Translations under genes and position numbers: made by a program
Notes under the pieces: model-generated
The model's input: only the letters and a program-made list of their open reading frames with translations
Told to the model about the DNA's origin: nothing
The model's database searches: none
Source: Chloroflexota bacterium
GTDB taxonomy: Bacteria; Chloroflexota; Dehalococcoidia; DSTF01; RBG-16-68-14
NCBI GenBank assembly: GCA_022562155.1
Contig: JADFPV010000003.1
Location: 412-64,411 of the forward strand
Direction of reading: 5' to 3'
DNA length: 64,000 nt
Shown here: positions 13,096-57,858 of the stretch, in pieces
How positions within the stretch are numbered: position 1 is the stretch's first letter
Layout: the number at the start of each line of letters is the position of its first letter

Positions 13096-13139
13096 GGATA
13101 GGAGGTGATACGCAGAGCGCGCGGAGCGACGCGAGTCAC

Positions 13140-13340
13140 GGTAGAGTAAGCGCCAGATCCCGGCCACGCTGGTGAAACCAGGCAGTCGGGATGACGAGGA
13201 GGAGGTCTATCGAATCATTCGGCGGATGGCCTCCCGGCAAGTACAGTCGTCATGGCCGGTACAAACCAGGGGTGCAAATCCCTGCCAAAAAGCCGTCCAA
13301 CGTACCGGGGGAAACTGCAACCCCTGCCCCACGCAGGCCG
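13140..13340 (+). ncRNA. glmS ribozyme: glmS ribozyme (GlcN6P-responsive self-cleaving riboswitch)
   Basis: aAGCGCCAGAtCC cleavage-site core at 13149, and GACGAGGAgGAGGUcUAUCGAAUcaUUCGGCGGAUGgCCUCCCGGC matching the conserved glmS ribozyme core. Sits directly 5' of glmS. Confidence 0.7.
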
Positions 13341-13436: not shown

Positions 13437-15281
13437 ATGTGCGGCATCATTGGGTACGCGGGCACGCGCCAGGCCAGTCCACTGCTGGTGGAAGGCCTGC
13501 AACGGCTCGAGTACCGCGGATACGACAGCGCCGGCATCGCTGTTCTCGACAGCGACGGCCAGCTACACGTCAAGAAACAGCAGGGCAAACTCGCGAAGCT
13601 GACAGCCAGCCTGGAGGGCGTGCATCCGCCGGGCACGATTGGGCTGGCGCACACGCGTTGGGCGACCCACGGCAAGCCTTCGGACGAGAACGCGCATCCT
13701 CAGCAGGACTGCAGTCAGGAGGTGGCGGTCGTCCACAACGGCATCGTCGAGAATTACCTCGACCTCGGCCAGGAGTTGATGGCGCAGGGCCATGGGCTAA
13801 CATCGGAGACCGATACTGAGGTCATCGCCCATCTGATTGAAGCGAACCTCCAGAACGGCGACGAGCTACACGAGGCCCTACGGCACGCCATTCAGCGCAT
13901 CGAAGGCTCTCATGCGATCGTGGCACTCACGAAGAACGATCCGGACCGCCTCGTGGCGGCGCGTGTGGGCAATGCGGGCGGCGTGGTCATCGGCTACGGC
14001 GAAAACGAACACTTCATCGCGAGCGACCTGCCGGCGCTCTTACCCGAAACACACAGGGTAGTCTTCCTCGACGACGGCGAGCTAGTGGAGCTGACACGCG
14101 AGAGTGTGCGCTACTGGGACGCCGCCGGCGAACCGATCGACAAGGAACCGCAGACCGTACCGCTCGACCCCGTCGCGGCGGCCAAAGGCACCTACAAGCA
14201 CTTCATGCTCAAGGAGATCGTCGAGCAGCCCGAGTGCGTGCTGGACACGTTCCGGGGCCGCGTCCTGTTCGACCCGCCGAGCGTGCAGTTAGAGGACCTC
14301 GATATGTCGGCCGACACCCTGCGTAACATCGAGCGCGTCGTGCTCATCGCGATGGGCACGAGCCTGCACGCGGCGATGGTCGGCCGGCGCTACTTCGAGG
14401 AGCTGGCTGGGCTGCCGGCTGAGGTCGACTACGCATCGGAGTTCCGCTACCGCAGTGCCATCGTCGGACCGGAGACGCTCGTCGTAAGCGTTGCGCAGTC
14501 CGGCGAAACCGTCGATACGCTGGAAGCGATGCAGGAAGCGCAGCGGGCCGGCTCGCCGCAGATCACGATCTGCAATACGCCGGGCGCGCAGTCGACCCGA
14601 GTCGCGGACGCGACGGTCTATACCCGCTGCGGGCCGGAGATCAGCGTGGCGAGCAGCAAGACGCTGACGGCGTCGATGATCGCGCTCTACCTGCTCGCGT
14701 GCCACATCGGCCGCGTGCGCGGGCGCCTGGACGAAACCCAACTGGCGGAACTGACCGGACCGCTCGCCCACCTGCCCGACCTGATGGGACGAGTCCTCCA
14801 TGGCGCACCCGCAATCGAAGAACTGGCGCACCAGTTCCAGAGCTACCACCACTTCCTCTTCCTCGCGCGCGGCCTCCAGTACCCGGTCGCGATGGAGGGA
14901 GCACTCAAGCTGAAAGAGCTGAGCTACATCCACGCCGAGGGCTACCCGGCGGGCGAGATGAAGCACGGGCCGATAGCGCTGATCGACGAGCAGATGCCGA
15001 CGATCGCGATCGCAGTCCGAGACGGCATGCGTGAGAAGATGCGGTCGAACATTGAGCAGGTGCGAGCACGCGACGGCACGGTGATCGCGCTCATCAACGA
15101 AGGCGATACCGAGATGGCGCAGAAGGCCGACCACGTCATCGAAGTGCCGGAGACGACGCCACTGTTGCTGCCGTTGCTGACGGTGCTGCCGCTACAACTG
15201 TTGGCCTACTACATTGCGGTCTTGCGCGGCTGTGACGTGGACCAGCCTCGTAACCTCGCAAAGACGGTGACCGTGGAATAG
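13437..15281 (+). CDS. glmS: glutamine--fructose-6-phosphate aminotransferase
   Basis: MCGIIGY N-terminal nucleophile, two SIS domains, full length 614 aa. Confidence 0.95.
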   Translation: MCGIIGYAGTRQASPLLVEGLQRLEYRGYDSAGIAVLDSDGQLHVKKQQGKLAKLTASLEGVHPPGTIGLAHTRWATHGKPSDENAHPQQDCSQEVAVVHNGIVENYLDLGQELMAQGHGLTSETDTEVIAHLIEANLQNGDELHEALRHAIQRIEGSHAIVALTKNDPDRLVAARVGNAGGVVIGYGENEHFIASDLPALLPETHRVVFLDDGELVELTRESVRYWDAAGEPIDKEPQTVPLDPVAAAKGTYKHFMLKEIVEQPECVLDTFRGRVLFDPPSVQLEDLDMSADTLRNIERVVLIAMGTSLHAAMVGRRYFEELAGLPAEVDYASEFRYRSAIVGPETLVVSVAQSGETVDTLEAMQEAQRAGSPQITICNTPGAQSTRVADATVYTRCGPEISVASSKTLTASMIALYLLACHIGRVRGRLDETQLAELTGPLAHLPDLMGRVLHGAPAIEELAHQFQSYHHFLFLARGLQYPVAMEGALKLKELSYIHAEGYPAGEMKHGPIALIDEQMPTIAIAVRDGMREKMRSNIEQVRARDGTVIALINEGDTEMAQKADHVIEVPETTPLLLPLLTVLPLQLLAYYIAVLRGCDVDQPRNLAKTVTVE

Positions 15282-30167: not shown

Positions 30168-30242
30168 TGGAGCCCACAATCGGGATTGAACCGATGACCT
30201 CGCCCTTACCAAGGGCGTGCTCTACCACTGAGCTATGTGGGC
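30168..30242 (-). tRNA. tRNA-Thr (anticodon GGU)
   Basis: Manual fold: acceptor GCCCACA/UGUGGGC, anticodon loop cUUGGUAa, T-loop GGUUCAAUCC, CCA encoded. Confidence 0.8.
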
Positions 30243-30313
30243 GCAGTATGCGCCAGAGCCGAACGCCCTTCTCTCTAGATTTTGGCCCTTCCAGCTTCCG
30301 GCGTCAATCTCAC

Positions 30314-30401
30314 TGGTGGAGGGGGCAGGATTCGAACCTGCGTAGCCCGTCAGGGCAACGATTTTACAGACCGCCGGTTTTAGCCACTCACCCACCCCTC
30401 C
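30314..30401 (-). tRNA. tRNA-Tyr (anticodon GUA), long variable arm
   Basis: Acceptor GGAGGGG/CCCCUCC, anticodon loop CUGUAAA, T-loop GGUUCGAAUCC, 88 nt. Confidence 0.8.
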
Positions 30402-30417
30402 GTAATTAGTTAGGTGG

Positions 30418-30493
30418 TGGAGCCCGCGAGGGGATTCGAACCCACTAACCTGTCGATTACAAATCGACTGCGCTACCATTGCGCCACGCGGGC
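30418..30493 (-). tRNA. tRNA-Thr (anticodon UGU)
   Basis: Acceptor GCCCGCG/CGCGGGC, anticodon stem GUCGA/UCGAC with loop UUUGUAA, T-loop GGUUCGAAUCC. Confidence 0.8.
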
Positions 30494-45183: not shown

Positions 45184-47670
45184 CTACTGACAGCTATGCT
45201 GGTACTGCTGGATCACGCCCATGATGTCGTTCGACAAGTCGATGACCCCGTCCGGCGCCGTCATGTTCCAGACGTTCGGGCCGGTCGATGGGCCGCGGTC
45301 GAAGTTGACGTCGTAGGTCGGCTCTGTACCCGTCGGCGCGTAGTGGATGATCACGCCGAAGATGTCGTTCGTAAGGTCAATGATCTGGTCCGGTGGCCCG
45401 CCGCCCCCTCCTAGCACATCGTAGTAGTCGTTCGGGTTTTGCCAGTCACGCATGCCGCCTAGCATCTCATCCGGCCCGTTCTCGCGCTGGTCAGAGCAGC
45501 CATCGCCGTCCGTGTCCGTTAGGTCGGGGGTTGGTGTCGGAGGCAGAGGCGTGGGCGATGGTGTGGCCGTTGGTGGGGGGCAGTCGGACACTGAGCACCA
45601 CTCAAACGCTCCAATGTCACAGGTGGCTACGTTGTCCCCATTTCCGTCGACCGGTCGAGTCTTACCGCGCTGATCAGTGCCCGGTGGCGGGCAGTCGCCG
45701 CTGCCGGCGTCGATCGCTGGACTACCGATGAGTAGGGCGTGAGTCTGAGTCGGGCCGCCGTTGTTCGCTAGCGGACCGAGCAGCGGGTTAGCGTTGCTGA
45801 TGTCGCCAGCCGCCGAAAGGCCGCACGTGCCGTCGCTATCCAGGTTATAGCCTGCAGAAGTGATGGTTCCGGAGCAGTCGCTCGCACCGTTATTGGCAAC
45901 AATTGTGTTCTTCAAGGTGACGGTGGCGGACTGGAAGGTATCGATGCCGCCGGCCCTGGCACCAGCGCCGGTCGCAGAGTTCCCACTGACGGTACTGTTG
46001 TTGAGGATCAAGATGGCGGACTGGAAGGTCCGGATGCCGCCGGCCTTGGTGGAAGAGTTCCCGCTGACAGTACTGTTGTTGAGGGTCAACGTGGCGAGTT
46101 GGAAGCTCTGGATGCCGCCGGTGCCGTGGTCGCCGGCGGAAGAGTTCCCGCTGACACTGCTATCGTTGAGTGTCAGGATGGCGGACTGGAAGCTCTCGAT
46201 GCCGCCGGTGCCGTAGTCGCCGTCGGCGACGTTCCCGCTGACGGTGCTGTTGTTGAGGGTCAGGATGGCGGACTGGAAGCTCTCGATGCCGCCAGCGCCA
46301 TAGCCAATGGTCGCGGTGTTGTTGCTGACGGTGCTGTCGTTAAGGGTCGTGTTGGCGCCCTGGAAGCTCTGGATGCCGCCGGTGCCGGCGTAGCCGGTCG
46401 CAGAATTGCCGGTCACAGTGCTGTTGTTGAGGGTCAGTGTGCCTCTTCTGTTCTCGATGCCGCCGGTGCCGTAGTCGCCGGCGGCATGACTGTCGCTGAC
46501 AGTGCTTCTGTTGAGGGTCAGCGTGCCTGAGCTTAAGATAGCGCCGATGCCGTAGTCACCGTTGTCCGAGCCATTTCGGATGGTCAGGTCGGAAATCTCC
46601 GCTGTAGCACTGATCATGATCTCAAAGACTCGGGAGAGCCCAGCGCCGTCGATGGCAGTAGTGGCAGCGCCAGCGCCGATGACCGTGATCTCGGTCGAAA
46701 TCGTCAGCTGCCCCTTAGACAGGAAGTACACGCCCGCAGGCACGCCGATCACCTGAGCGCCGGGAAGAGCGTTCGCCTCCTGAATCGCGGCTCGCAGCGT
46801 GCAGGCGCCTCCGGCCGTGGCGCATACGCCGTTGCCCTGACTGACGTCGTTGGCGTCGATCGTGCTATTGACGTTGAAGTCGGCCTCTGGTGGCGGTGTC
46901 GGCGTCGGTGTGTTGGTCGGCGTTGGGCACCCCTCAGGCGGGCACGGCGTCGGCGTCGGGGTGATGGTCGGCGTCGGTGTGATGGTTGGCGTCGGGGTGT
47001 CCGTCGGCGTGGGTGTGGCCGTTGGCGTCGGTGTGTCCGTCGGCGTCGGCGTCGGCGCGACGCAGTTGATCGTCAGCGAGCTGACCTTCGGTACGATGCG
47101 GGCGCCGGTGCCGGCCTCGATGAAGGCCGCGCCGTTCGTGCCGGCGTCCGGGTGTCCGTCCGGAAGCAGGTCGAGCGTGGCCGGTGAATCGACGGAAGTC
47201 AGCGGACACGCCATCGAGATCTCAACGACGTTCCCAACGTAGGTGCTGGTCGGCAGCGGCGGGATCAGGCCGGTCAGCGCACCGTGGATCAGCACGGAGC
47301 CGAGCTGCGCGCGCGTCACGATGACGGCGTCCGGCCAGACGATCTCGTCGAGCCCGGATGCCGTAGCTGCGTAGATGAGCTTGCCACCGAGTTCGATGGC
47401 CGTCTGCATCAGCGTGTAGCCGCCGGCGGGAATGCCGAGCGCATCGACAGAAAGCGTGAAGGAAGCGCCGGTGGGGACGCTGCACTTCGTAGGTCGAACT
47501 GGGTTGTCGCAATCGCCGCCCTTGATCGTGAGCACCATCTCCGGCCCGCCCGTCGCCGCGGAGGCCGTTTCGGAGCCACTATCTGTAACTGCCAGGGTGA
47601 AGATGACCGCCGCTGCGACGAGCAGCAGCGCCACGCCCCCCGTGACGGTCCTGAAAAGCGATCGAGTCAT
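45184..47670 (-). CDS. large secreted modular surface protein 1 (Ig-like Cys domain, PT linker, CSLREA-type motif plus parallel beta-helix repeats, Cys-rich module, dockerin-like C-terminal domain)
   Basis: Signal anchor [39 protein letters not shown]. About 10 PbH1-like repeats ([27 protein letters not shown]). [19 protein letters not shown]...CDIGAFE module. C-terminal [18 protein letters not shown]...[11 protein letters not shown]...[19 protein letters not shown]. Confidence 0.7.
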
Positions 47671-47734
47671 GGCGGCAATCCCTTAGACCAACAATGGCCG
47701 AGGATAGTGTGGCGGCGGTCGCCCTAGGCGGCTG

Positions 47735-47785
47735 CTAGCTACCGCCTAGTATGATACTCTCACCTTAGGCTGTCAACACAGAAGC
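47735..47785 (-). promoter_or_regulatory. sigma-70-like promoter TTGACA-N17-CATACT upstream of surface protein 1
   Basis: The same -35/-10/spacing arrangement is conserved upstream of all three paralogs. Confidence 0.45.
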
Positions 47786-47789
47786 CTTA

Positions 47790-47965
47790 CCCACAGCCCA
47801 GCAGAAGCGTTCCCGACCGAATGTCAGGCCTTCTGCCAAGCTGAATCTGCGATTCAGCCGTCTACTGACAGCTATGCTGGTACTGCTGGATCACGGCTGA
47901 CCCTCGGTCAGCTTGGCAGTTGCTTCGCAACTGCAGCCCGGCTTGATTCTCCGGCAATCAACGCA
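47790..47965 (-). repeat. conserved 3'-flank element downstream of surface protein 2 (copy of 51470-51644) containing three hairpins and a relic copy of the gene 3' end
   Basis: 47858-47895 is identical to the true 3' end of gene 1 (45180-45217). Hairpins gctgaatc-N3-gattcagc, gctgacc-ctc-ggtcagc and gcagttgc-ttc-gcaactgc. Confidence 0.6.
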
Positions 47966-50900
47966 TCACTGACAGCTATGCAAGTACTGCTGGATCACGC
48001 CCATGATGTCGTTCGACAAGTCGATGACCCCGTCCGGCGCCGTCATGTTCCACGCATCCGGCCCGGTCGAAGGTCCGCGGTCGAAGTTCACGTCGTACTC
48101 CGGCTCGGTACCCGTCGGTGCGTAGTGGATAATCACGCCGAAGATGTCGTTCGTCAGGTCGATGACCTGATCGCCGTTCACATCGTAGTAGTCGCTGGGG
48201 TTCTGCCAATCGCGCATGCCTCCCAGCATCTCGTCCGGCCCGTTCTCGCGTTGGTCAGTACAGCCGTCTCCATCGGTGTCGACCAAAGCGACCTCGGTGC
48301 AGTTGATCGTGAGCGGGCCAACATTCGGCAGGATGATCCGGGGATCCACGGCGAGAAACGCTGTGCCGCTCGTACCGGCGACCGGGTCGCCTTCTGGAAT
48401 CAGCACGATGGCATTCGAGCTGGGGCCAGGCGTGCAATTCATGTGCAGTTCAATTACGGTGCCCTCGAAATCGCTCACTGGAAGTGGCGGGAGGAGGCCG
48501 GTGAGGGCGCCGTGGAATACCAGGCCCGGGCCAGGCTGGCCTCGGACCGATATCGCTGATAGATCCGGCCAGACGATCTCGTCTGCGATGGACCCCTTCT
48601 TGTAGGTCAGGTTCAGTCCGTAGTCGATGAACGTCTGGACGCCCACGTAGCCTTCGGCCGGGGCTGTCAGCACATCCACGGATAGGATGAACTGACTCCC
48701 CAGCGGAACATTGCACTTCACCGGCCTAACCGGGTCATTACAATTCGCGCCCTTGACGGTGAGCGCCATCTCCGGCTTGTCGCCTGGCGGTAGCACTGGA
48801 GTATTCGTTGGCGTGGGCGTGTCCGTTGGCGTGGGGCACGGCCCGCCGCACGGTGTCGGTGATGGCGTAACAGTTGGCGTCGGTGGGGTGGTCGGTGTCG
48901 GGCCTACCACTCCGGACTCGAACGCTCCGATGTCGCAGGCACCTGCCGGGCGAGCGGCGCCACGCTGATCGGTGGCAGGTGGCGGACAGTCGCTGCTGCC
49001 GGCGTCGATGGCTGGGCTGCCGGGGAGCAGGGCGTGGGTGAACGTTGGCCCGCCGTTGTCGGCCAGCGAGCCGAGGAGCGGGTTGGCGTTGCTGATGTCG
49101 CCTGTTCCCGTGAGACCGCAACTGCTGTCGCTGGAGAGATTGTGGCCTAGAGAGACGACGGGGCCACCGCAATCGGTTGGCGAGTTGTCCGCAACGATGG
49201 TGTTCTTTATTGTCGCGTTCTGAATGCCACCATTTACGTTGCCGGCCGTATTGCCAGTGATCGTGCTGTTGTTGATGGTTGCCACACCCTTGTTGCGGAG
49301 AGCTCCGCCCGTATTGTCCGCTACATTGTTGCTAATCGTGCTGTTGTTGATGGTCAACGTGCCAGCGCCGCTCCCGCCGTCACCAATTCCGCCACCGGTG
49401 TTGCCGGCATGGTTGCCGCTGATCGTGCTGTCGTTGATGGTCAGCGTGCCTTGGTAGTAAATGCCACCGCTGACGTTGCCGGCCGAGTTGCCCGTGATAG
49501 CGCTTCTGTTGAGCGTAAGCGTGCCGACGACAGAGATGCCCCCGCCCGCGTTGATGGCTGAGCCGTTTCGTACGGTTAGATCGGAGATCTCCGCGGTAGC
49601 GCCGCTCGAGATATAAAACACGCCGCCAAGCCCACCGCCGTCGACAGCGGTAGTGCCAGCGCCCGCGCCGTTGAGGGTGAGATCCGACGAAATGGTTAGC
49701 TGTCCGGCAGATAGGTTGTAGGTGCCTGCTGGCACCGTGATTACGTCAGAACCCGGAAGAGCGTTCGCCTCCTGGATCGCGGCTCGCAGCGTGCAGGCGC
49801 CTCCGGCTGTGGCACAGATACCGTTGCCCGTACTGGCATCGCCGACGTCGGCGGTACTGTTGACGGTGAAACTGGCTGCTGGCGTCGGGGTTGCCGTCGG
49901 CGTAGGGCACCCCTCCGGCAGGCACGGTGTCGGCGTGGGCGTGGGCAGCGGCGTGTCCGTTGCTGTCGGTGGGATGGGTGTTGGCGTTGCTGTCGGAGGA
50001 ATAGGCGTTGGCGGGATAGTTGGCAGAGGACACGCTACACACGTCTCGTATGCGCCAATGTCGCAGGTAGCTGTGGCGTCCCCGTCGCCATCGAACGGCC
50101 GAGCAGCACCGCGCTGATCGGTGGCTGGCGGCGGACAGTCACTGCTGCCCGCGTCGATAGCCGGGCTGCCGGAGAGCAGAGCGTGGGTCAGTGTGGGCCC
50201 GCCGTTGCCGGCCAACGGGCCCAGGAGCGGGCTGGCGCTGCTGATGTCACCGGGTCCCGTGAGGCCGCAACTACCATCGCTGTCCAGGTTGTGCCCAAGA
50301 GAAGTGATGGTACCAGAGCAATCGCTCGCACCGTTATTGGCCATGATAGTGTTCTTCAAGGTGGCACTGGCGAATTGGAAGTTCGCGAGGCCGCCGGTGC
50401 TGGTGCCAGCATTGCCGCTGACGGTGCTGTTGTCGAGGGTCAAGGTGGCGGACTGGTAGATCTGGATGCCGCCAACAGCATTGCCGCCGCTGGCAGAGTT
50501 GTCGCTGAGGGTGCTGTTGTTGAGCGTCAAGACGGCGGATTGATAGGTCTGGATACCTCCGGTGGCCTGGATTCCAGAGGCCGAGTTGCCGCTGACGGTG
50601 CTGTTATTGAGAGTCACTGTAGCCGACTGGAAGCTCTGGATGCCGCCGGTGCCGTAGTTGTTGGGGGCCGAGTTGCCGCTGACGGTGCTGTTATTGAGGG
50701 TCAACTTGGCGGACTGAAAGGTCTCGATGCCGCCGGTGCTGTACTCGCCGGTCGCGGTATTGCCGCTAACCGTGCTGTTGTTGAGGGTTAGGGTGCGGCC
50801 GCTGGGGTTCCTGATGCCGCCGGCGCTGTAGTCGCCCGAGGCAGAATTGCCGCTGACGGTGACGCTGTTGAGAGTCAGCGTGCCCCCGTTGTGGATGCCT

Positions 50901-51346
50901 GCAGCGTAGTAGTCGTCGGAGGCGAAGCCGTTTCGGATGGTCAGACCTGACATCTCCACCGTGCCGCTAATAGCGAATACTGCGCTGAGCCCGGCGCCAT
51001 CGACGGCTGTAACGGCCGCGCCTGCGCCATTGAGGGTGAGATCGGACGAAATCGTTAGCTGTCCGGCGGACAGGTTGTAGGTGCCCGCTGGCACGCTGAT
51101 TAAGTCAGCGCCAGGAAGAGCGTTCGCTTCCTGAATGGCGGCCCGCAGCGTGCAGGCGCCGCCGGCCGTTGCGCACACGCCGTTGCCGGGACTGGCGTCG
51201 CTTGCGTCGGTTGTGCTGTCAACGGTGAAGCCGGCTGCTCCAGTAGTGCTTGGGCCGAAACTCGCCGGGCCTAGGAAGACGACTCCCAACGCGATGATTA
51301 GCAGCGCCGCGCCAACCGTTACGATTCTGAAGTGAGATCGAGTCAT
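47966..51346 (-). CDS. large secreted modular surface protein 2 (two CSLREA/beta-helix modules, PT linkers, Ig-like Cys domain, dockerin-like C-terminus)
   Basis: Start chosen at [22 protein letters not shown] (ATG 51344-51346, GGAGGA RBS). Two [15 protein letters not shown] occurrences. Same C-terminal 105-aa module as proteins 1 and 3. Confidence 0.7.
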
Positions 51347-51414
51347 GCTGGCAATCCTCCAAACCCCAATAACGGCCGAGGATCGTATCGAGGCCGTCGT
51401 CCTTCGCGGCCGGT

Positions 51415-51460
51415 AGCTGCCGCCTAGTATGGGCGTCTTGCTGTAGGTTGTCAACACAGA
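51415..51460 (-). promoter_or_regulatory. TTGACA-N17-CATACT promoter upstream of surface protein 2
   Basis: Conserved with 47735-47785 and 55665-55710. Confidence 0.45.
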
Positions 51461-51469
51461 AGCCTCACC

Positions 51470-51644
51470 CACAGCCCAGCAGAAGCGTTCCCTGACCGAA
51501 GGTCAAGCCTCCTGCCAGGCTGAATCTCAGATTCAGCCGTCTACTGACAGCTATGCTGGTACTGCTGGATCACGGCTGACCCTCGGTCAGCTTGGCAGTT
51601 GCTTCGCAACTGCAGCCCGGCTTGATTCTCCGGCAATCAACGCA
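51470..51644 (-). repeat. second copy of the conserved 3'-flank element (downstream of surface protein 3)
   Basis: Near-identical to 47790-47965, including the relic ccgtctactgacagctatgctggtactgctggatcacg. Confidence 0.6.
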
Positions 51645-54600
51645 TCACTGACAGCTATGCTGGTACTGCTGGATCACGCCCATGATGTCGTTCGACAAGT
51701 CGATGACCCCGTCCGGCGCCGTCATGTTCCACGGATCCGGCCCGGTCGAAGGTCCGCGGTCGAAGTTCACGTCATACTCAGGCTCGGTACCCGTCGGCGC
51801 GTAGTGGATGATCACGCCGAAGATGTCGTTCGTCAGGTCGATGATCTGGTCCGGCGGCCCACCTCCACCACCGAGTACGTCGTAGTAGTCGTTCGGGTTC
51901 TGCCAGTCGCGCATGCCGCCTAACATCTCATCCGGCCCGTTCTCGCGCTGGTCGGTGCAGCCGTCTTCGTCCGTGTCTGTTGGGTCAAACGTTGGTGTCG
52001 GTGTTGGCGTCAGGGTAGATGTAGGCGTCGGCGTAGCCGTCGCCGGTGTCGAGTTGAAGAACACATCGTCGATACCGACATGCAAGATAAATCGGTATAC
52101 GGCGATTCCGAAGCGCAGGCAGACTTCCTGTCCGATGAATGCGCCTGCGTTAGCTGTCACGAGGTCGTAGCCTGACGTGAGCGGATCTCCCGGCTGAGTC
52201 TGATAGAGATTCATGAGAACGTCTGCCGGATCTGTCGTAAATGGGTCGCTCAACATGCCTGCCTTAGTCACCAAGTCGGCCCGGAACTGCTGACTAGACC
52301 AGAAGTCTAGTGTGGGTGTGGTCACGTAGGCACCGGATATGTTCTTGAGATACAGCTGGAACTCTATCTGGCTGCTGGCCAGCACCTGACATCGGTACAG
52401 GACGAGCGTGGCGGGAGCGCCTTGGTTGGTCATGACGGCTTGGAGCCCTTGGGGTGGAGGTGCGACGAGAGGTGCGACAACGCTCGGTGCGCTCGCGCAG
52501 TCGCCCTGAGGCACCTCTGTGCCGGATTGGTTGCACCAACCGCCGGTAGGAGATAGTCCGGCGTCGGGAATGTAAAACCCTTCGCCATCCGCTTCCCAGC
52601 AGGGAACGTCTAAGGAGTCCACAACGCCTTGTTCAAAGTCGTCGTTTCCTCTCGGGCATTCTCCTGGCACTGGGGTGGGTATGGACGTTGGACAGCCCTC
52701 CGGCCCGCACGGTGTTGGTGTCGGCGTGCCGCTCGGTGTTGGCGTGTCGCTCGGCGTTGGCGTGTCGCTCGGCGTTGGTGTATCCGTTGGTGTATCCAGC
52801 GGGGTCGGGGGAATGGGTGTTGGCGGAGTCGTTGGCAGGGGGCAGTCGGGCGCCGGGCACCACTCGAACGCTCCGATGTCACACGTAGCCACGGTGTCCC
52901 CATCGCCATCGGACGCTCTAGGAGCGCCACGCTGATCGGCTGTTGGCGGCGGACAGTCGCTGCTGCCGGCGTCGATGGCCGGGCTACCGGCGAGCAGCGC
53001 GTGGGTCAGCGTTGGGCCGCCGTTGCCGGCCAACGGGCCTAGAAGCGGGTTGGCGTTGCTGATGTCGCCGGTTGCCGCAAGACCGCACGTGCCATCGCTA
53101 TCTAAGTTATGGCCGGCGGAGGTAAAGGGGCCAAAACAGTCCTGCGAAGTGTTGTTAGCGACAATGGTGTTCTTCAGGGTCACTGTGCCGTCACCACTAT
53201 GGATGCCTCCGCCTTCAACGGTTGCTGAGTTGCCGCTAACGTTGCTGTTGTTGATGGTAAGCGCGCCACCTTCAGAGTTGTAGATACCGCCACCGAAGAA
53301 GCCGGCTGAATTGCTGCTCACAGTGCTGTTGCTGACGGTCATCGTGCCGGAGTTGCCGACACCGCCGATGGCAAGGCCCCCTGAATTGCCGCTGACGGTG
53401 CTGTTGGTGATTGAAAGCACACCACCTACAGCGTTGCCTACGCCGCCAAGGATATTAGCCGAGTTGCCACTGACAGTGCTGTTGTTGACGGTCATCGCGC
53501 CGGAGTTGCCGATTCCGCCAACTGCACCATCTGCTGAGTTGGCGCTGATATCACTGTTGTTGATGGTCACCACGCCACCTGTGCTGTTACTTATGCCAGC
53601 CGTCCCGCCAGCAGAGTTGCCGCTGATAGTGCTGCCATTAATGGCGACCTCGCCAACTCCGCCGTTGCCGATTCCGCCACCCGCATTGTCAGCACGATTA
53701 CCGCTGACCGTGCTGTCGTTGAGGGTCAGCGTGCCGGAATTGCCGATACCTCCGTTCGCGTTTCCAACGGAGTTCGCGATGACGGCGCTGTCGTTAAGTG
53801 TCAGAGTGCCACGGTTGCTGATGCCGCCATCCGCGTTGAATTCCCAGCCGTTCCGTATGGTCAGACCAGAGATCTCCACGGTTGCGCCGCTTGCGATGTC
53901 GAAGATGCGGCTGAGCCCGGCGCCGTCGACGGCGGTAGTGGCAGCACCAGCACCATTGAGGTGTAGATCGGTTGTAATAGATAGCTGTCCCTGAGAAAGA
54001 ATGTAGGTATTCGCCGGCACGTCGATCACGTCAGAGCCGGCAAGGGCGTTCGCTTCCTCAATGGCGGCCCGCAGTGTGCAGTCTCCGCTGGCCGTGGCGC
54101 ACACCCCGTTGCCGGGGCTTGCGTCGCCTGCGTCGTCGGTGCTGTTGACTGTGAAGTTGCCTGTTGGTGTCGGCGTGAATGTTGGCGTGGGGCACGGGCC
54201 GCCGCAGGGCGTAGGCGGTAAGTCGGTTGGCGTCCCTTTGGGCCCTAGTAGGTCGAAGGCGTAGGCGGCACCGGCGAGTGAGCCCCCGGTGTCTTCGTAG
54301 TGTGCCCCGACGATGACGGTGTTGCCGCTCACCGCCACGCTACGGCCGAACTCGTCTCCGTCTTTAGCGTCTGAGGCCGTCAGCTTGCTTACCTCACCCC
54401 AGTTGTTCAGGCCGCCCTCGTCGCGACCGAACACGTAGGCGGCGCCGGAGGTCGCTGCTTGGAACTGATTCTCGCGGTTGGCTCCCACTACGGCGCTGTC
54501 GCCGTTCAAGGCGACGCTCACTCCGAAGTGACCGGATGCGTTCGGAGAAGAAGCCACCAGCTTCTTGACCTCGCCCCAGTTGTCGGCACCACCTTCATCA

Positions 54601-55595
54601 CGGACGAATACATAGGCCGCTCCGGACTGCGTAATTACGCCGGTATCGAGTCTCGCCCCCACGATGGCCGTGTTACTGTCGATCGCAACGCTCTCGCCGA
54701 AATTGGCACTAAAGCTGGCATCGGAGGCGACCAGCCGCTTCACCTCGCCCCAATTGTCTGTTCCGCCCTCATCGCGACCGAACACGTAGGCTGCTCCCGC
54801 ATTGCCGGCTTCGGTATCCTCGATCGCCGCCCCGACGACGGCGTTGTCGCCACTGACGGCGACACCAGAGCCGAACCTGGCATCAGCGTGGGCGATGGAT
54901 GGGGTGAGCTTCTGGACCTGGCCCCAGTTGCCTGCACCGCCCTGGTCGCGGTCGAAGACATAGGCTGCGCCGGCATCGCTGCCCCCGGCATCCTCTCTCC
55001 GCGCCCCGACAACGATCGTTTCGCCGCCGATCGCAACGCTCCAACCGAACTCGTCGCCGGCCTGAGCGTCGGAGGCGGTGAGCTTCTTGTTCTCGCCCCA
55101 GTTGTCCGCGCCGCCCTCGTTGCGTTCGTAAACGTAGACCGCCCCGGAATCGCTGCCCCCTGTATCGTGATCACGTGCCCCAACGACGACGGTATCGCCG
55201 CTGATCGACACGCTGTAACCGAACTGGTCGCCAGCCTGTGCATCGGAAGCGGTGAGCTTCTCTACCTCGCCCCAGTTATTTATCCCACCAACATCCCGCT
55301 GGAAAACGTAGGCGGCACCGGCGTTAGCGCCTCCCGCATCATCACCGAATGCCGCCACGACAGCGGTGTCCCCGCTGACAGCCACGCTGCCGCCGAAGCG
55401 TTGGAGTGTATGCCCATCGGAGGCGAGGAGCTTTCTCACCTCGCTCAGCTGCGCCGCCTCGGCGCTCTGCGGCACAGGCCTAAGGCCGGCCGCGCCAAAC
55501 AGCACTCCGGCCGCGATCATGAACATGAACGCGGCGATCGCGGCACGCACCAGGAATGGCACGTTCGTGACGGTCCTGAGTAGCGATCGAGCCAT
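51645..55595 (-). CDS. large secreted modular surface protein 3 (FG-GAP beta-propeller repeats, CSLREA/beta-helix module, PT linker, jelly-roll-like domain, dockerin-like C-terminus)
   Basis: Start at MARSLLRTVTNVPFLVRAAIAAFMFMIAAGV (ATG 55593-55595). About 7 FG-GAP-like repeats (FG.SVA..GD..VVGA.....G..SGAAYVF). CTLRAAIEEANALAG. Shared C-terminal module. Confidence 0.7.
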   Translation of the reverse strand: MARSLLRTVTNVPFLVRAAIAAFMFMIAAGVLFGAAGLRPVPQSAEAAQLSEVRKLLASDGHTLQRFGGSVAVSGDTAVVAAFGDDAGGANAGAAYVFQRDVGGINNWGEVEKLTASDAQAGDQFGYSVSISGDTVVVGARDHDTGGSDSGAVYVYERNEGGADNWGENKKLTASDAQAGDEFGWSVAIGGETIVVGARREDAGGSDAGAAYVFDRDQGGAGNWGQVQKLTPSIAHADARFGSGVAVSGDNAVVGAAIEDTEAGNAGAAYVFGRDEGGTDNWGEVKRLVASDASFSANFGESVAIDSNTAIVGARLDTGVITQSGAAYVFVRDEGGADNWGEVKKLVASSPNASGHFGVSVALNGDSAVVGANRENQFQAATSGAAYVFGRDEGGLNNWGEVSKLTASDAKDGDEFGRSVAVSGNTVIVGAHYEDTGGSLAGAAYAFDLLGPKGTPTDLPPTPCGGPCPTPTFTPTPTGNFTVNSTDDAGDASPGNGVCATASGDCTLRAAIEEANALAGSDVIDVPANTYILSQGQLSITTDLHLNGAGAATTAVDGAGLSRIFDIASGATVEISGLTIRNGWEFNADGGISNRGTLTLNDSAVIANSVGNANGGIGNSGTLTLNDSTVSGNRADNAGGGIGNGGVGEVAINGSTISGNSAGGTAGISNSTGGVVTINNSDISANSADGAVGGIGNSGAMTVNNSTVSGNSANILGGVGNAVGGVLSITNSTVSGNSGGLAIGGVGNSGTMTVSNSTVSSNSAGFFGGGIYNSEGGALTINNSNVSGNSATVEGGGIHSGDGTVTLKNTIVANNTSQDCFGPFTSAGHNLDSDGTCGLAATGDISNANPLLGPLAGNGGPTLTHALLAGSPAIDAGSSDCPPPTADQRGAPRASDGDGDTVATCDIGAFEWCPAPDCPLPTTPPTPIPPTPLDTPTDTPTPSDTPTPSDTPTPSGTPTPTPCGPEGCPTSIPTPVPGECPRGNDDFEQGVVDSLDVPCWEADGEGFYIPDAGLSPTGGWCNQSGTEVPQGDCASAPSVVAPLVAPPPQGLQAVMTNQGAPATLVLYRCQVLASSQIEFQLYLKNISGAYVTTPTLDFWSSQQFRADLVTKAGMLSDPFTTDPADVLMNLYQTQPGDPLTSGYDLVTANAGAFIGQEVCLRFGIAVYRFILHVGIDDVFFNSTPATATPTPTSTLTPTPTPTFDPTDTDEDGCTDQRENGPDEMLGGMRDWQNPNDYYDVLGGGGGPPDQIIDLTNDIFGVIIHYAPTGTEPEYDVNFDRGPSTGPDPWNMTAPDGVIDLSNDIMGVIQQYQHSCQ

Positions 55596-55664
55596 GCTGG
55601 CAACCCCCTTAGACCAACAACGGCTGAGGACTGTGTGGCGGCCGTCGTCCTTGGCGGCCGCTTG

Positions 55665-55710
55665 TAGATGGGGTCTAGTATGATGCTCTTGCCTTAGGTT
55701 GTCAACAGAA
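55665..55710 (-). promoter_or_regulatory. TTGACA-N17-CATACT promoter upstream of surface protein 3
   Basis: Conserved element, see above. Confidence 0.45.
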
Positions 55711-56061
55711 ATCGCTCTAACGTCACTGTCAGACGCCGGACTGTGCCACATCGCCCTCCTAGCTATCCTTCGCGCCGCATATGATCACTGGATCACCATG
55801 CACAACGCAGAATGCAGCGGCCTAAACTTCGATTCGCTTATCATCTCCCCTCTCCCTCTGGGAGAGGGGTTGGGGGTGAGGGCAGAGTCAATCAACCAAT
55901 ACCCCCGATTTCGCCACCCGCCACCTGTTGCCAAGCAACAGCCAAGCTCGCCGAAGGCGAGCCAATCAAGCGATCAAAGCTCACAAGCCAAGGCAGAAAC
56001 CGCCCGCAGGGCTAGCACGTACTCGTACTAACCTCTGCGCGTATCCGATAATGAATGCAGC

Positions 56062-57858
56062 ATGCTCCGCCGAGTCCTGACCACGCTGCCGATCGCGGCC
56101 CTGCTGCTGGTGACCTACCTCACGGCGGCTCCTCACCAGACGGCTGCGAACGAACTGCTCCACGTCGCCAGCGATGTCACCTACGAAGTATCGCCGGATG
56201 AAGGCCCAATCCACGTCACATGGCAGGTCGCTCTCCAGAACAACGACCCGGACACAATGCGAAGTGGATCCGGCGCGTTGCTCTACTACAACAGCCTGAC
56301 TGTTCCCATCCTCCGCGGCGCCACGAACGTGCTCGGTATCGGACCCACGGGTGACCGGCTTGAGGTCAACGTTGATGTAAGTGGCGAAGGTCCGATCGAT
56401 CTAGCTGAAGTCGCCTTTGACCAGCAACTGTTCTACGGCGATTCGTACGGCTTCCAGCTTTCGTACGACATCGTGGAGGCGCGCTCCACGGCGCTACTGG
56501 CCACCGACAGCTATGTGTTTCTCCCGGCGATCGCGAGTGGTGACAGCGCCGATGTCCGCATCGTGACGCCGAACGACAGCAACTGGGAGGTCACGATAGA
56601 GGCGCTCGACTGTCCGCCGGCTGCTGCCGACCTCTTTTTGTGCGGGCCGTCCGAATTCGTCCAGGTCGCGGCATTCGTCGAGGTCGCCCGCGTCGGCGTG
56701 CTGACCAGCTCCAGCTTCTCGGTCCCATTGCAAGCCGCCGAGCTGTCGATTACGCTCCGCCACTTCCCCGGAGAGGAAGCGTGGGCGGATCATATCCAGG
56801 AGCTTACTAAGGCGGCGCTGCCTCTATTGGAGGAGCTGTTCGGCTTCGCCTACCAGGGGGCAACGGTACTGGAGATCACGGAGCGTGGGCGCCAGGACAT
56901 CTCAGGCTATGAAGGAACATTCGGCTGCATCTTCGACTCCTGCGTGATTGGCGTCTCACCGCTCGCCGACGATAGGGTCGCGATCCACGAACTGGCGCAC
57001 CTCTGGACGCAGCCGTTCGAGAGCCGCTGGATCGCCGAAGGGCTCGCCGAATTCATGTCGGAACGCGCCGCCGACGAACTGGGCGTTCTTGTGGAGTCGA
57101 ACCAACCGGGCTCTCCCGCGAGCATTGTAGAGTTGCAGCTCGATGACTGGGGCCGCAGCCGCTACCTCATCGGCGCCACGGAAGCAGACGTGGTGATCGA
57201 AACGACCGGCTACTACAGGTCGCGGACGCTCTTCGAGACGCTCCAGGAGACCGTTGGCCTGAGTGCGCTGCAGACTGCTAACGCCGCAGCCGCGGAGATT
57301 GGCGGCGGCATCGACAGCGAGAGGTATTTCGACCTGCTCGAAGAAGCCAGCGGGTTGCGGCTCGACATGCTGTTCCTCAAGGAGGTCTTCCCCGCATCGC
57401 ACGGCCCGCGACTGGACCAGCGTCGCGACCTGCGAGAGCGCCTGGAGACACTCCGGCCCGAAGCCCGCGCAGCCGGCTTCGCGCTGCCGGCCCGTATCGG
57501 ACAACTGCTGGATGAGTGGGAGTTCGACGAAGCGAACGTCCTGCTCGTCGCCGCTGAGCGCGCCCTAGCCGCCTACCAAGACGCACTCGTTCGCGTCCGC
57601 GAGCCCCGCGACATCTGGAAGAGGATTGGGCTGGCCGGCAAGGACCCTGACGCCACGCTGGGCGAATCCGCAGACGCCTTCGCGGCCACAGAGTTCTCTC
57701 GATCCGAGCGACTCTCTCGAGATGCCATCTCAGAGCTCGATGGCGCAGGCGATGCCGCGCTTGTCCGCGTTGTAATCGGCGCTGTTGTCATCGTCGTCGC
57801 GCTACTCGTACTGGCCGGCGTCCTTTGGATCGCCCGTTCCCGCGCTATCTATCGATAG
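56062..57858 (+). CDS. secreted, C-terminally membrane-anchored putative zinc metallopeptidase (HExxH)
   Basis: Signal peptide MLRRVLTTLPIAALLLVTYLTAAP. AIHELAHLW HExxH motif. C-terminal TM helix plus RSRAIYR. Confidence 0.5.
   Translation: MLRRVLTTLPIAALLLVTYLTAAPHQTAANELLHVASDVTYEVSPDEGPIHVTWQVALQNNDPDTMRSGSGALLYYNSLTVPILRGATNVLGIGPTGDRLEVNVDVSGEGPIDLAEVAFDQQLFYGDSYGFQLSYDIVEARSTALLATDSYVFLPAIASGDSADVRIVTPNDSNWEVTIEALDCPPAAADLFLCGPSEFVQVAAFVEVARVGVLTSSSFSVPLQAAELSITLRHFPGEEAWADHIQELTKAALPLLEELFGFAYQGATVLEITERGRQDISGYEGTFGCIFDSCVIGVSPLADDRVAIHELAHLWTQPFESRWIAEGLAEFMSERAADELGVLVESNQPGSPASIVELQLDDWGRSRYLIGATEADVVIETTGYYRSRTLFETLQETVGLSALQTANAAAAEIGGGIDSERYFDLLEEASGLRLDMLFLKEVFPASHGPRLDQRRDLRERLETLRPEARAAGFALPARIGQLLDEWEFDEANVLLVAAERALAAYQDALVRVREPRDIWKRIGLAGKDPDATLGESADAFAATEFSRSERLSRDAISELDGAGDAALVRVVIGAVVIVVALLVLAGVLWIARSRAIYR

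What the first reader, a model, noticed from the sequence alone, without database searches (positions are those of the whole stretch)
45184..55751. Tandem trio of modular giant secreted proteins sharing CSLREA-type/beta-helix modules and a dockerin-like C-terminal domain, with evidence of domain shuffling
Three consecutive minus-strand genes (828, about 1126 and about 1316 aa) are built from shared cassettes:
- signal anchor
- about 170-aa four-Cys Ig-like domain
- Pro/Thr linkers
- N-terminal C(T)[13 protein letters not shown] motif (CSLREA-like) leading into [13 protein letters not shown]...GGI.SFQSA parallel beta-helix repeats
- a Cys-rich module ending CDIGA(F/Y)E
- in protein 3, FG-GAP beta-propeller repeats
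- an identical about 105-aa C-terminal module: [17 protein letters not shown]...[17 protein letters not shown]...[22 protein letters not shown]

The duplicated DxxIDL(T/S)NDI.GVI segments resemble the two Ca-binding repeats of dockerins. The cassettes occur in different orders and copy numbers among the paralogs, implying recombination between them.

A dockerin-like module on beta-helix proteins implies a cohesin-like partner or another Ca-dependent anchoring mechanism not encoded in this window.
Basis: partly seen in the sequence, partly recalled or inferred. Interest (0 to 1): 0.7.

Follow-up and report, generated by a model that had tools for sequence, protein, structure and literature searches.

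The report
Cohesin–dockerin-like surface proteins of Chloroflexota
Three neighbouring genes encode secreted modular proteins whose shared tail is the catalogued Chloroflexota "flexitail" domain, apparently a calcium-binding relative of dockerin, and whose "Ig-like" domain is predicted to have a cohesin fold, so the likely docking partner lies inside these proteins themselves.

Summary
Three tandem minus-strand genes (828, 1125 and 1316 aa) share shuffled cassettes, and each has its own copy of the same promoter-like site.

Most cassettes belong to catalogued families:
- CSLREA_Nterm.
- Choice-of-anchor Q (the "CDIGAFE" module).
- Seven FG-GAP repeats in protein 3.
- The C-terminal 108 aa, which is NCBIfam NF041520 "flexitail" (139–144 bits against a cut-off of 40).

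Flexitail fails the Pfam Dockerin_1 threshold, and its confident AlphaFold model (pLDDT 92) matches no solved structure. It does have one fully conserved canonical EF-hand loop, two dockerin-type loop–helix repeats and an invariant Cys pair. Hybrid modules in related genomes that pass Dockerin_1 link it to true dockerins.

- in one to three copies;
- on proteins that end in a flexitail, a canonical dockerin or a C-terminal membrane anchor.

Flexitail genes number about 15–20 or more loci in the best-sampled genomes, often in arrays.

Best reading: a non-cellulosomal cohesin–dockerin-type surface-display network. Binding itself is inferred, not shown.

The parts
45184..47670 (-). Gene P1 (828 aa): signal peptide, X (cohesin fold), Pro/Thr linker, CSLREA + parallel beta-helix + choice-of-anchor Q, linker, flexitail
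   Evidence: ORF. NCBIfam hits: flexitail 144 bits, choice_anch_Q 85 bits, CSLREA 25.2 bits. Domain map from BLAST.
47035..47544 (-). P1 X domain (aa 43-212), the four-Cys 'Ig-like' domain, predicted cohesin fold
   Evidence: 50% identical to the P2 X domain (E 9e-40; tblastn). The P2 copy was modelled and matched cohesins.
45571..46899 (-). P1 cargo: CSLREA cap, 29-aa-period parallel beta-helix repeats, choice-of-anchor Q (CDIGAFE)
   Evidence: (87-nt periodicity).
45187..45516 (-). P1 flexitail domain (aa 719-828)
   Evidence: NF041520, E 2.5e-42, aa 719-827.
47966..51343 (-). Gene P2 (1125 aa from the ATG at 51343): signal peptide, two CSLREA/beta-helix/choice-of-anchor-Q modules, X, flexitail
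   Evidence: Beta_helix 42.8 bits; 2 CSLREA, 2 choice_anch_Q, flexitail. Start supported by the promoter-like site.
48290..48775 (-). P2 X domain (aa ~857-1018), directly abutting the flexitail; predicted cohesin fold
47969..48292 (-). P2 flexitail domain (last 108 aa)
   Evidence: NF041520, E 1e-40. AlphaFold2 model pLDDT 92.1. Column conservation.
51645..55595 (-). Gene P3 (1316 aa from the ATG at 55595): signal peptide, 7 FG-GAP_2 repeats, CSLREA/beta-helix/choice-of-anchor Q, unassigned ~200-aa domain, flexitail
   Evidence: (FG-GAP_2, E 1.7e-116, 7 stretches).
51996..52640 (-). P3 domain 'Y' (~215 aa) between a Pro/Thr linker and the flexitail; no family match
   Evidence: No Pfam hit at E<=10, no PDB sequence match, single copy in the window.
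51648..51977 (-). P3 flexitail domain (aa 1207-1316)
   Evidence: NF041520, E 1.1e-41. 90% nt and 95.5% aa identity to the P1 copy.
47748..47776 (-). Promoter-like TTGACA-17-CATACT upstream of P1. Identical copies lie at 51426-51454 (P2) and 55677-55705 (P3).
   Evidence: Upstream regions are 82% identical (family D14).
47862..47894 (-). Exact 33-nt relic of a flexitail 3' end (…[10 protein letters not shown]), followed by the hairpin, downstream of the P2 stop. A second copy lies at 51541-51573 downstream of the P3 stop.
   Evidence: D12; 4 matches, 0 expected.

Best explanation
The three genes encode Sec-exported modular surface proteins of a Chloroflexota (Dehalococcoidia-type) bacterium. 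They belong to a lineage-specific, non-cellulosomal cohesin-dockerin-type assembly system.

**The C-terminal flexitail: the docking module**
- It is a 108-aa Ca2+-dependent domain that appears to be derived from dockerin.
- It has one canonical EF-hand loop (DxDxDGCxDxxE) and two dockerin-type loop-helix repeats (DGxIDLxNDIxGVI).
- A Cys11-Cys107 pair probably forms a disulfide clasp between its two ends.

**The ~165-aa X domain: the proposed receptor**
- It is a cohesin-fold module.
- Elsewhere in such genomes, X modules sit on proteins with a C-terminal membrane anchor, which would tether complexes to the cell.
- X modules also sit on flexitail- or dockerin-bearing proteins, which could act as adaptors or chain extenders. 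P1 and P2 are of this kind. P3 would be a terminal cargo.

**Cargo displayed**
- Adhesin-like CSLREA/parallel beta-helix/choice-of-anchor-Q modules and a 7-bladed FG-GAP propeller.

**Origin of the trio**
- Tandem duplication of whole promoter-to-terminator units, followed by domain shuffling and local gene conversion.

**Shown and inferred**
- Shown: family memberships, the predicted folds, the architectures and the genomic distribution.
- Inferred: Ca2+ binding, the disulfide, and above all that flexitail binds X, and which X it binds.
For: **X is a cohesin fold**
- The only PDB sequence hit of the X profile is a cohesin (5lxv_A, E 0.15).

**Flexitail as a Ca-binding, dockerin-related module**
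- NF041520 scores 139-144 bits.
- Loop 1 residues D5, D7, D9, G10, D13 and E16 are 93-100% conserved, and C11 and C107 are 100% conserved. The two repeats D-G-x-I-D-L-x-N-D-I-L-G-V-I are conserved.
- The flexitail profile matches calmodulin EF loops (E 0.017).
- In the model, long helices follow both repeats.

**Link to dockerin**
- N-terminal modules in related flexitail proteins pass the Pfam Dockerin_1 cut-off of 22.9 bits (29.3, 26.2 and 30.2 bits). Their second repeat is flexitail-type, DLNKDGVVDLPNDILGVI…C.
- An HMM built from these modules hits flexitail repeats at 1e-4 to 1e-7.
- A short flexitail-like variant scores 21.9 bits on Dockerin_1.

**System context**
- The genome scan found 99 flexitail matches, kept as 71 loci. 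All were in about 9 MAG species, eight labelled Chloroflexota or Dehalococcoidia, with up to ~20 loci per genome.
- Flexitail genes lie in tandem arrays, for example 8 in 20 kb in L006.
- Flexitail is always C-terminal, apart from a few proteins that carry a second internal copy, and it sits on very diverse cargo.
- Of 236 distinct X domains, 97 are in flexitail proteins, 45 in proteins with a C-terminal TM anchor, and 38 in proteins with canonical dockerins.
- Scaffoldin-like proteins with 3 X modules exist.
- TM-anchored X genes lie beside flexitail genes in L001 and L012.
- The same beta-helix/choice-of-anchor-Q cargo elsewhere ends in TM tails or dockerins. Flexitail therefore occupies an anchor position.

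**Duplication and conversion**.
Against: - No binding was tested, and no multimer prediction was available.
- Flexitail fails the Dockerin_1 threshold.
- hhalign of flexitail against the canonical dockerins of the same genomes is weak (P 0.01, probability 4%).
- Loop 2 carries a variable 0-10-aa insertion in 58% of members, and position 12 of both repeats is Asn rather than Asp or Glu. Those two loops are therefore not canonical Ca sites.
- X does not match the Pfam Cohesin model.
- The same genomes hold many canonical dockerins, which could be the true partners of X.
- The main X subfamily occurs with all three tail types, so no pairing rule is visible.
- No membrane-anchored X protein is encoded in this window.
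Confidence: 0.55

Rival explanations
1. Flexitail anchors proteins to a non-protein envelope component (an S-layer glycan, wall polymer or lipid head group) in a Ca2+-dependent way. The X cohesins bind only the canonical dockerins of these genomes. On this reading, X in P1 and P2 is a receptor for dockerin proteins, not for flexitails.
For: - Canonical Dockerin_1 modules are abundant in the same loci (about 24 strong hits).
- X occurs with dockerins about as often as with TM anchors.
- Flexitail is not detectably similar in fold to solved dockerins.
- In cellulosomes, an adaptor's cohesin usually binds a dockerin type different from the adaptor's own (general knowledge).
Against: - The flexitail repeats are linked to dockerin F-hands through hybrid modules.
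- Flexitail proteins far outnumber canonical dockerins around X genes.
- Many small proteins consist only of signal peptide, X and flexitail, as expected of adaptor or polymer units.
Confidence: 0.22
2. Where X directly abuts flexitail, as in P2 and in many small homologues, the two form a rigid intramolecular pair in which X only stabilises the tail. This would resemble the X-module-dockerin dyad of type II/III dockerins. The pair as a whole would then bind some unknown partner.
For: - The two-domain model has pTM 0.81 for 274 residues, which suggests a defined mutual orientation.
- The gap between the X and flexitail envelopes is 0-5 residues in most X-flexitail proteins.
Against: - In P1, X lies about 500 residues from the flexitail.
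- Most flexitail proteins have no X.
- X also occurs in 2-3 tandem copies and on TM-anchored proteins without any flexitail.
- No PAE or coordinates were available to confirm the contact.
Confidence: 0.13
3. Flexitail is a sorting or secretion signal read by dedicated export or processing machinery, as with T9SS C-terminal domains or sortase-type signals, and is removed or covalently attached rather than acting as a docking module.
For: - It is strictly C-terminal on very diverse cargo and restricted to one lineage.
- NCBI named it in the 'choice-of-anchor' logic, and the same cargo elsewhere carries TM-type sorting tails.
Against: - It is a confidently folded 108-aa acidic domain with an EF-hand loop and no hydrophobic segment.
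- A few proteins carry an internal flexitail as well as a C-terminal one.
- No conserved candidate processing gene was seen next to the arrays, although this was not searched systematically.
Confidence: 0.08

Closest known systems
NCBIfam NF041520 'flexitail domain-containing putative surface protein', with NF041518 choice-of-anchor Q and TIGR04214 CSLREA_Nterm
   Same: All three window proteins score far above the flexitail cut-off (139-144 against 40 bits). The domain is C-terminal, and relatives are Chloroflexota. The choice-of-anchor Q and CSLREA models also hit.
   Different: The family entry only names a putative surface protein. The libraries searched gave no fold, partner or mechanism, and no paper on the bacterial domain was found.
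Cohesin-dockerin system of cellulosomes, and non-cellulosomal cohesin/dockerin modules (e.g. Clostridium perfringens, Archaeoglobus fulgidus)
   Same: - X has a cohesin fold by prediction. The hits include the non-cellulosomal cohesins 2vo8 and 2xdh.
- The tail is C-terminal, sits on diverse cargo, and has duplicated Ca-loop/helix repeats and a terminal clasp. Intramolecular clasps are a described dockerin feature (PMC3821032).
- The related genomes contain multi-cohesin scaffoldin-like proteins, adaptor-like proteins with cohesin plus tail, and membrane-anchored cohesin proteins.
   Different: - Neither module reaches the Pfam Cohesin or Dockerin_1 thresholds.
- Flexitail is about 108 aa, against about 60-70 aa for a dockerin. 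It has an extra N-terminal EF-hand loop, a ~35-aa conserved inter-repeat segment (YDVxFDRGP…WNMTAP) and an invariant Cys pair.
- The cargo is beta-helix, FG-GAP, esterase and phosphoesterase domains rather than plant-cell-wall enzymes.
- Anchoring is by a C-terminal TM tail, not SLH or sortase.
Chlamydial Pmp-type / autotransporter-like parallel beta-helix adhesins (from general knowledge, not tested)
   Same: The cargo has repetitive GGI…(F)xxN-like ~25-29-aa beta-helix turns.
   Different: There is no autotransporter beta-barrel. The cargo is capped by a CSLREA motif and closed by choice-of-anchor Q. The resemblance is recalled from memory only.

Membership tests
flexitail (NCBIfam NF041520) | HMM score above the curated cut-off (40 bits) over the full 107-position model | tested here: met
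   144, 138.9 and 142 bits, profile positions 1-107 of 107, in P1, P2 and P3.
flexitail (NCBIfam NF041520) | C-terminal position in secreted proteins of Chloroflexota | tested here: met
   C-terminal in all three window proteins and in 115 homologues. The genome hits come from about 9 MAG species, eight labelled Chloroflexota/Dehalococcoidia and one 3-kb contig in a Planctomycetota bin.
Dockerin (Pfam PF00404 Dockerin_1) | Sequence match at or above the gathering score (22.9 bits) | tested here: not met
   No hit for the window tails at E<=10. Four of 115 full-length members hit Dockerin_1 at E<=1, and the best hit is P0038's separate N-terminal module. A typical flexitail scores 15.3 bits.
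Dockerin (Pfam PF00404 Dockerin_1) | Two tandem Ca-binding loop + helix (F-hand) repeats | tested here: inconclusive
   Two conserved DGxIDLxNDIxGVI repeats are each followed by a helix. Their loops are non-canonical: Asn at position 12, and a variable insertion in loop 2. The only canonical EF loop is the extra N-terminal one.
Dockerin (Pfam PF00404 Dockerin_1) | Fold similar to solved dockerins | tested here: not met
Dockerin (Pfam PF00404 Dockerin_1) | Ca2+-dependent binding to a cohesin | not testable with these tools
   Needs multimer modelling or biochemistry.
Cohesin (fold; Pfam PF00963) | Nine-stranded beta-sandwich of the cohesin type | tested here: met
Cohesin (fold; Pfam PF00963) | Sequence match to the Pfam Cohesin model | tested here: not met
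   No Pfam hit at E<=10 for either X copy. The X profile against PDB sequences gives only a cohesin, at E 0.15.
Cohesin (fold; Pfam PF00963) | Binds a dockerin-type module | not testable with these tools
   Inferred only, from architectures and co-occurrence.
CSLREA_Nterm (TIGR04214) | HMM score above the 25-bit cut-off | tested here: met
   P1 25.2 bits (borderline), P2 56.1 bits (two copies), P3 33.5 bits.
choice-of-anchor Q (NF041518) | HMM score above the 25-bit cut-off | tested here: met
   85.2, 169.1 (two copies) and 77.7 bits.
FG-GAP_2 beta-propeller (PF14312) | Seven repeats above the gathering score | tested here: met
   P3: E 1.7e-116, 7 stretches. 174-nt DNA periodicity (families D9/D10).
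Right-handed parallel beta-helix (PF13229) | HMM match | tested here: inconclusive
   Only P2 passes (42.8 against 25.9 bits). The P1 and P3 modules are 62-69% identical to it and show the same periodic repeats, but do not score on their own.

The most novel reading that the evidence does not exclude
Flexitail is a new, enlarged class of dockerin with three Ca sites and a disulfide clasp, and X is its cognate cohesin. Together with canonical dockerins and membrane-anchored X proteins, they would form a large, previously undescribed cohesin-dockerin interactome. This network would build the displayed surface layer of uncultured Dehalococcoidia-type Chloroflexota. Proteins that carry both X and flexitail, such as P1, P2 and the many small X-flexitail proteins, would polymerise head-to-tail into chains or lattices.
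Probability: 0.35. Interest if true: 0.75.

Novelty: new variant of a known kind. Interest (0 to 1): 0.58.

Why it matters
- Cohesin-dockerin pairing is the standard example of programmable extracellular protein assembly. It has been studied mostly in cellulolytic Firmicutes.
- A lineage-specific network in uncultured Chloroflexota would widen the known sequence and structure range of the system. It would consist of a divergent cohesin, a 108-aa dockerin derivative, about 15-20 or more loci in the best-sampled genomes, and non-cellulolytic cargo.
- It would give a testable model of how these poorly understood bacteria organise their cell surface.
- It would offer new orthogonal docking pairs for protein engineering.
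- It would assign a concrete, testable function to an annotated but uncharacterised NCBIfam domain.

Tried and rejected
- **Foldseek against the PDB** gave nothing below E 6.9.
- **hhalign of flexitail against 24 canonical dockerins** from the same genomes was weak (P 0.01, probability 4%). I therefore do not claim direct profile-level homology, only a chain through hybrid modules.
- **Pfam scans of the isolated domains at E<=10** showed no dockerin and no cohesin.
- **PDB sequence searches** of the beta-helix cargo and of the P3 Y domain found nothing.
- **Exact-sequence look-up of P1** found no record. The source organism is therefore known only by inference from homologues.
- **The metagenome scan with P1** returned only cargo (beta-helix/choice-of-anchor Q) relatives at <=60% identity and no syntenic trio.
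- **Clustering of X subfamilies against tail type** gave no clean pairing rule.
- **NCBIfam** did not recognise the C-terminal TM tail of X-anchor proteins as a known sorting signal.
- **Literature searches** found nothing on the bacterial flexitail or on cohesin/dockerin in Dehalococcoidia.
- **Rejected: an artefact of low-complexity Pro/Thr sequence.** The shared modules are folded domains with strong HMM scores.
- **Rejected: a mobile element or phage origin.** The neighbours are purF, purM, purH and a CDF transporter.

Full report
**1. The observation**

The three minus-strand ORFs are real: 45184-47670, 47966-51472 and 51645-55751.

Each gene is preceded by an identical promoter-like element, TTGACA-17-CATACT, at 47776-47748, 51454-51426 and 55705-55677. 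These lie about 80 nt upstream of the MTRS…/MARS… start codons and, for genes 2 and 3, inside the longest ORF.

Pairwise BLAST and HMM scans give the domain maps:

| Protein | Order of modules |
|---|---|
| P1 | signal peptide – X (aa 43-212) – Pro/Thr linker – CSLREA/beta-helix/choice-of-anchor Q (258-700) – linker – tail (719-828) |
| P2 | signal peptide – two beta-helix modules (31-455, ~500-815) – X (857-1018) – tail (1022-1125) |
| P3 | signal peptide – seven FG-GAP_2 repeats (E 1.7e-116) – beta-helix module (472-915) – an unlisted ~200-aa domain – tail (1207-1316) |

- The beta-helix turns show as 87-nt and 75-81-nt DNA periodicity, and the propeller blades as 174-nt periodicity.
- The tails are 92-95% identical in protein sequence, not identical.

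**2. Duplication and shuffling**

- The upstream regions and signal-peptide codons are homologous between the genes (families D13 and D14).
- P2 and P3 share a 96%-identical tract covering the last codons and about 155 nt downstream (D8). Fourfold-degenerate sites in their last 45 codons are 93% identical, against 48-58% in the beta-helix modules.
- Downstream of both stop codons lies an exact 33-nt copy of the P1 3' end (GTGATCCAGCAGTACCAGCATAGCTGTCAGTAG), followed by the same hairpin (none expected by chance).
- The family therefore grew by tandem duplication of whole transcription units, with later cassette exchange and local conversion.

**3. What the cassettes are**

NCBIfam recognises three of them:
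- the N-terminal C(T)[13 protein letters not shown] motif is CSLREA_Nterm (25.2, 56.1 and 33.5 bits; cut-off 25);
- the Cys-rich CDIGA(F/Y)E module is choice-of-anchor Q (78-169 bits);
- the C-terminal module is NF041520 'flexitail domain-containing putative surface protein' (139-144 bits; cut-off 40).

The tail is therefore a catalogued but functionally uncharacterised family. A full-text search found no paper on it.

**4. Is the tail dockerin-like?**

*By direct criteria it is not a member.*
- There is no Dockerin_1 hit at E<=10 for the window copies.
- Only 4 of 115 full-length homologues hit Dockerin_1 at E<=1, and the best is a separate N-terminal module.
- A typical flexitail scores 15.3 bits against the 22.9 cut-off.
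- hhalign against 24 canonical dockerins from the same genomes is weak (P 0.01).

*The resemblance is nevertheless real.*
- Across 115 sequences, loop 1 is a perfect EF-hand loop: D5-x-D7-x-D9-G10-C11-x-D13-x-x-E16, each 93-100% conserved. It aligns to calmodulin loops.
- Two repeats, D-G-x-I-D-L-x-N-D-I-L-G-V-I-x-(H/Q)-(Y/F), are each followed by a helix.
- C11 and C107 are invariant. They probably form a disulfide joining the two ends, analogous to the intramolecular clasp described for dockerins (PMC3821032).

*Intermediates exist in related genomes.*
- N-terminal modules of some flexitail proteins (P0038, L006, L001) pass the Dockerin_1 cut-off (29.3, 26.2 and 30.2 bits). Their second repeat is flexitail-type, …DLNKDGVVDLPNDILGVI…C.
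- An HMM built from these modules hits flexitail repeats at 1e-4 to 1e-7.
- A shorter flexitail-like tail (L024) scores 21.9 bits on Dockerin_1.

I conclude that flexitail is best seen as an enlarged derivative of the dockerin/F-hand module. It works like a dockerin in design but is not a member by current models.

**5. The 'Ig-like' domain is a cohesin fold**

- I modelled the natural X + flexitail unit of P2 (274 aa, 64-sequence alignment). The model has pLDDT 93.9 and pTM 0.81.
- The X profile searched against all PDB sequences gave one hit only, a Ruminococcus flavefaciens cohesin (E 0.15), aligned at the conserved N-terminal strand pair.
- Pfam's Cohesin model does not detect X.
Two of the three proteins carry one.

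**6. Context in related genomes**

- *Homologues of X + flexitail.* All are from metagenomes or MAGs, and every one that carries an organism label is named Chloroflexi or Dehalococcoidia.
- *Flexitail copy number.* In one genome per species (185,579 species), flexitail was found 99 times, kept as 71 loci. These come from only about nine MAG species, with up to ~20 loci per genome (OFTM331, SZUA-185, B45T1L10). The genes often lie in arrays, for example eight in 20 kb in L006.
- *Flexitail position and cargo.* Flexitail is always C-terminal, apart from a few proteins that also carry an internal copy. It sits on very varied cargo: FG-GAP, esterases and lipases, peptidase S9, BNR, metallophosphoesterase, RCC1 and CARDB.
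- *Size of the X family.* It has 937 representatives at 50% clustering.
- *X architectures*:
  - scaffoldin-like proteins with three X modules plus a flexitail (P0121-P0123);
  - three X modules plus a canonical dockerin (P0144, P0146);
  - X followed by a canonical dockerin (L020, L024, P0089, P0105);
  - X proteins ending in a hydrophobic helix and an Arg-rich tail (L001 10534-11895, L012 11000-12505, P0133 and many others);
  - one X protein fused to a polytopic membrane domain (L023).
- *Census of X contexts.* Of 236 distinct X domains, 97 lie in flexitail proteins, 45 in C-terminally membrane-anchored proteins and 38 in dockerin proteins. The subfamily containing the window's X copies occurs in all three contexts.
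- *Gene neighbourhood.* Two membrane-anchored X genes lie directly beside flexitail genes.
- *The cargo elsewhere.* The beta-helix/choice-of-anchor-Q cargo occurs widely in metagenomes. There it is followed by TM/Arg tails, canonical dockerins, flexitail-like tails or other domains. Flexitail therefore occupies the position of a surface anchor.

**7. Most likely mechanism**

- The proteins are exported by Sec. Each has an N-terminal basic and hydrophobic segment with an AxA-type site, read directly from the sequence.
- The flexitail folds around Ca2+ and is clasped by a disulfide.
- It then docks onto cohesin-fold X modules. Membrane-anchored X proteins, encoded elsewhere since none is in this window, would tether the complexes.
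- Proteins with both X and a tail, here P1 and P2, would act as adaptors or chain extenders. P3 would be terminal cargo.
- The displayed modules are an adhesin-like beta-helix and an FG-GAP propeller. Their ligands are unknown.

What is shown: the families, the predicted folds, the architectures and the distribution. What is inferred: Ca2+ binding, the disulfide and the X-flexitail pairing.

The chief rival is that X binds the canonical dockerins of these genomes while flexitail binds something else. The pTM of 0.81 for the two-domain model, together with the 0-5-residue junction seen in most X-flexitail proteins, also allows a rigid cis pair like the X-module-dockerin dyad.

**8. Comparison and novelty**

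- As family members, the three proteins are ordinary: flexitail-domain putative surface proteins with CSLREA and choice-of-anchor-Q cargo.
- Two findings appear in none of the libraries or papers searched. The accompanying domain is a cohesin fold. The tail is linked to dockerins within an elaborate network of scaffoldin-like, adaptor-like and membrane-anchored proteins.

**9. Surroundings**

- The neighbours are housekeeping genes: purF, purM, purH, a CDF transporter and a pterin-binding enzyme.
- GC content is uniform across the window. The trio therefore appears chromosomal, not on a mobile element.

Noticed in passing
window 47895-47968 and 51574-51647 (between the P2/P3 stop codons and the 33-nt relics): About 70-100 nt lie between each real stop codon and the relic of an older flexitail 3' end. 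They contain three short hairpins (TTGATT…AATCAA, GCAGTTGC-GAA-GCAACTGC, GCTGACC-GAG-GGTCAGC) and are 96% identical in the two copies. This looks like a small insertion or duplication that displaced the original terminator. No Rfam family matched at gathering score.
   Followed up: partly
window 47748-47776, 51426-51454, 55677-55705 (minus strand): Three identical promoter-like sites (TTGACA-17-CATACT), one before each gene. Each paralogue therefore appears to be its own transcription unit, and the long GTG/ATG-extended ORFs of genes 2 and 3 are probably not translated.
   Followed up: partly
It has no Pfam, NCBIfam or PDB sequence match and a single copy in the window.
   Followed up: partly
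window 13138-13309 (+): A full-length glmS ribozyme/riboswitch (83.6 bits, E 1e-17) directly upstream of the 614-aa ORF at 13437-15281.
   Followed up: no
window 30171-30493 (-): A cluster of three tRNA genes.
   Followed up: no
window 56062-57858 (+): The divergently oriented neighbour encodes a 598-aa protein with an N-terminal signal-like segment, an HELAH…E zinc-protease-like motif and a C-terminal hydrophobic helix with a basic tail. It has no Pfam hit. It is possibly another surface protein. No link to the trio was tested.
   Followed up: no
Related proteins P0127, P0175, P0193, P0236, P0133; L001 10534-11895; L012 11000-12505: X (cohesin-fold) proteins without a flexitail end in a conserved tail: …(E/D)LRxLPLE… or …VGGV…, then about 10-25 residues, a hydrophobic helix and RRR. 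NCBIfam finds only sub-threshold hits to GPS-CTERM and LPXTG_anchor. This may be an unclassified C-terminal sorting or anchoring signal.
   Followed up: partly
Homologues P0020, P0037, P0007, P0011, P0022 and others: A subset of X domains carries a ~40-aa Cys- and Asp-rich insertion (…ASEDGAGPNTCSDGIDNG..DG.DRFD.DC.T…) between two strands of the cohesin fold. Its function is unknown.
   Followed up: no
P0038; L006 229-3207; L001 12501-16550; L043 8071-9390; L013 9080-10336: Some proteins carry an N-terminal dockerin-type module (first repeat canonical, second repeat flexitail-like, Cys at both ends) as well as a C-terminal flexitail. They would have two docking modules per protein.
   Followed up: partly
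P0031, L019 2-2293, P0132: Rare proteins have two flexitail copies, one internal and one C-terminal. This argues against a purely terminal sorting signal.
   Followed up: no
L053 (JADFOF010000330.1, 3.1 kb): One flexitail locus lies in a bin labelled Planctomycetota, while every other hit is Chloroflexota or Dehalococcoidia. The contig is short and was most likely mis-binned.
   Followed up: no
Hits P0013, P0015, P0016, P0067, P0072: The precomputed annotation lists Pfam PF27154.1 for these flexitail proteins. The local Pfam copy returned no hit for P0013 or P0067. I could not identify that family.
   Followed up: no
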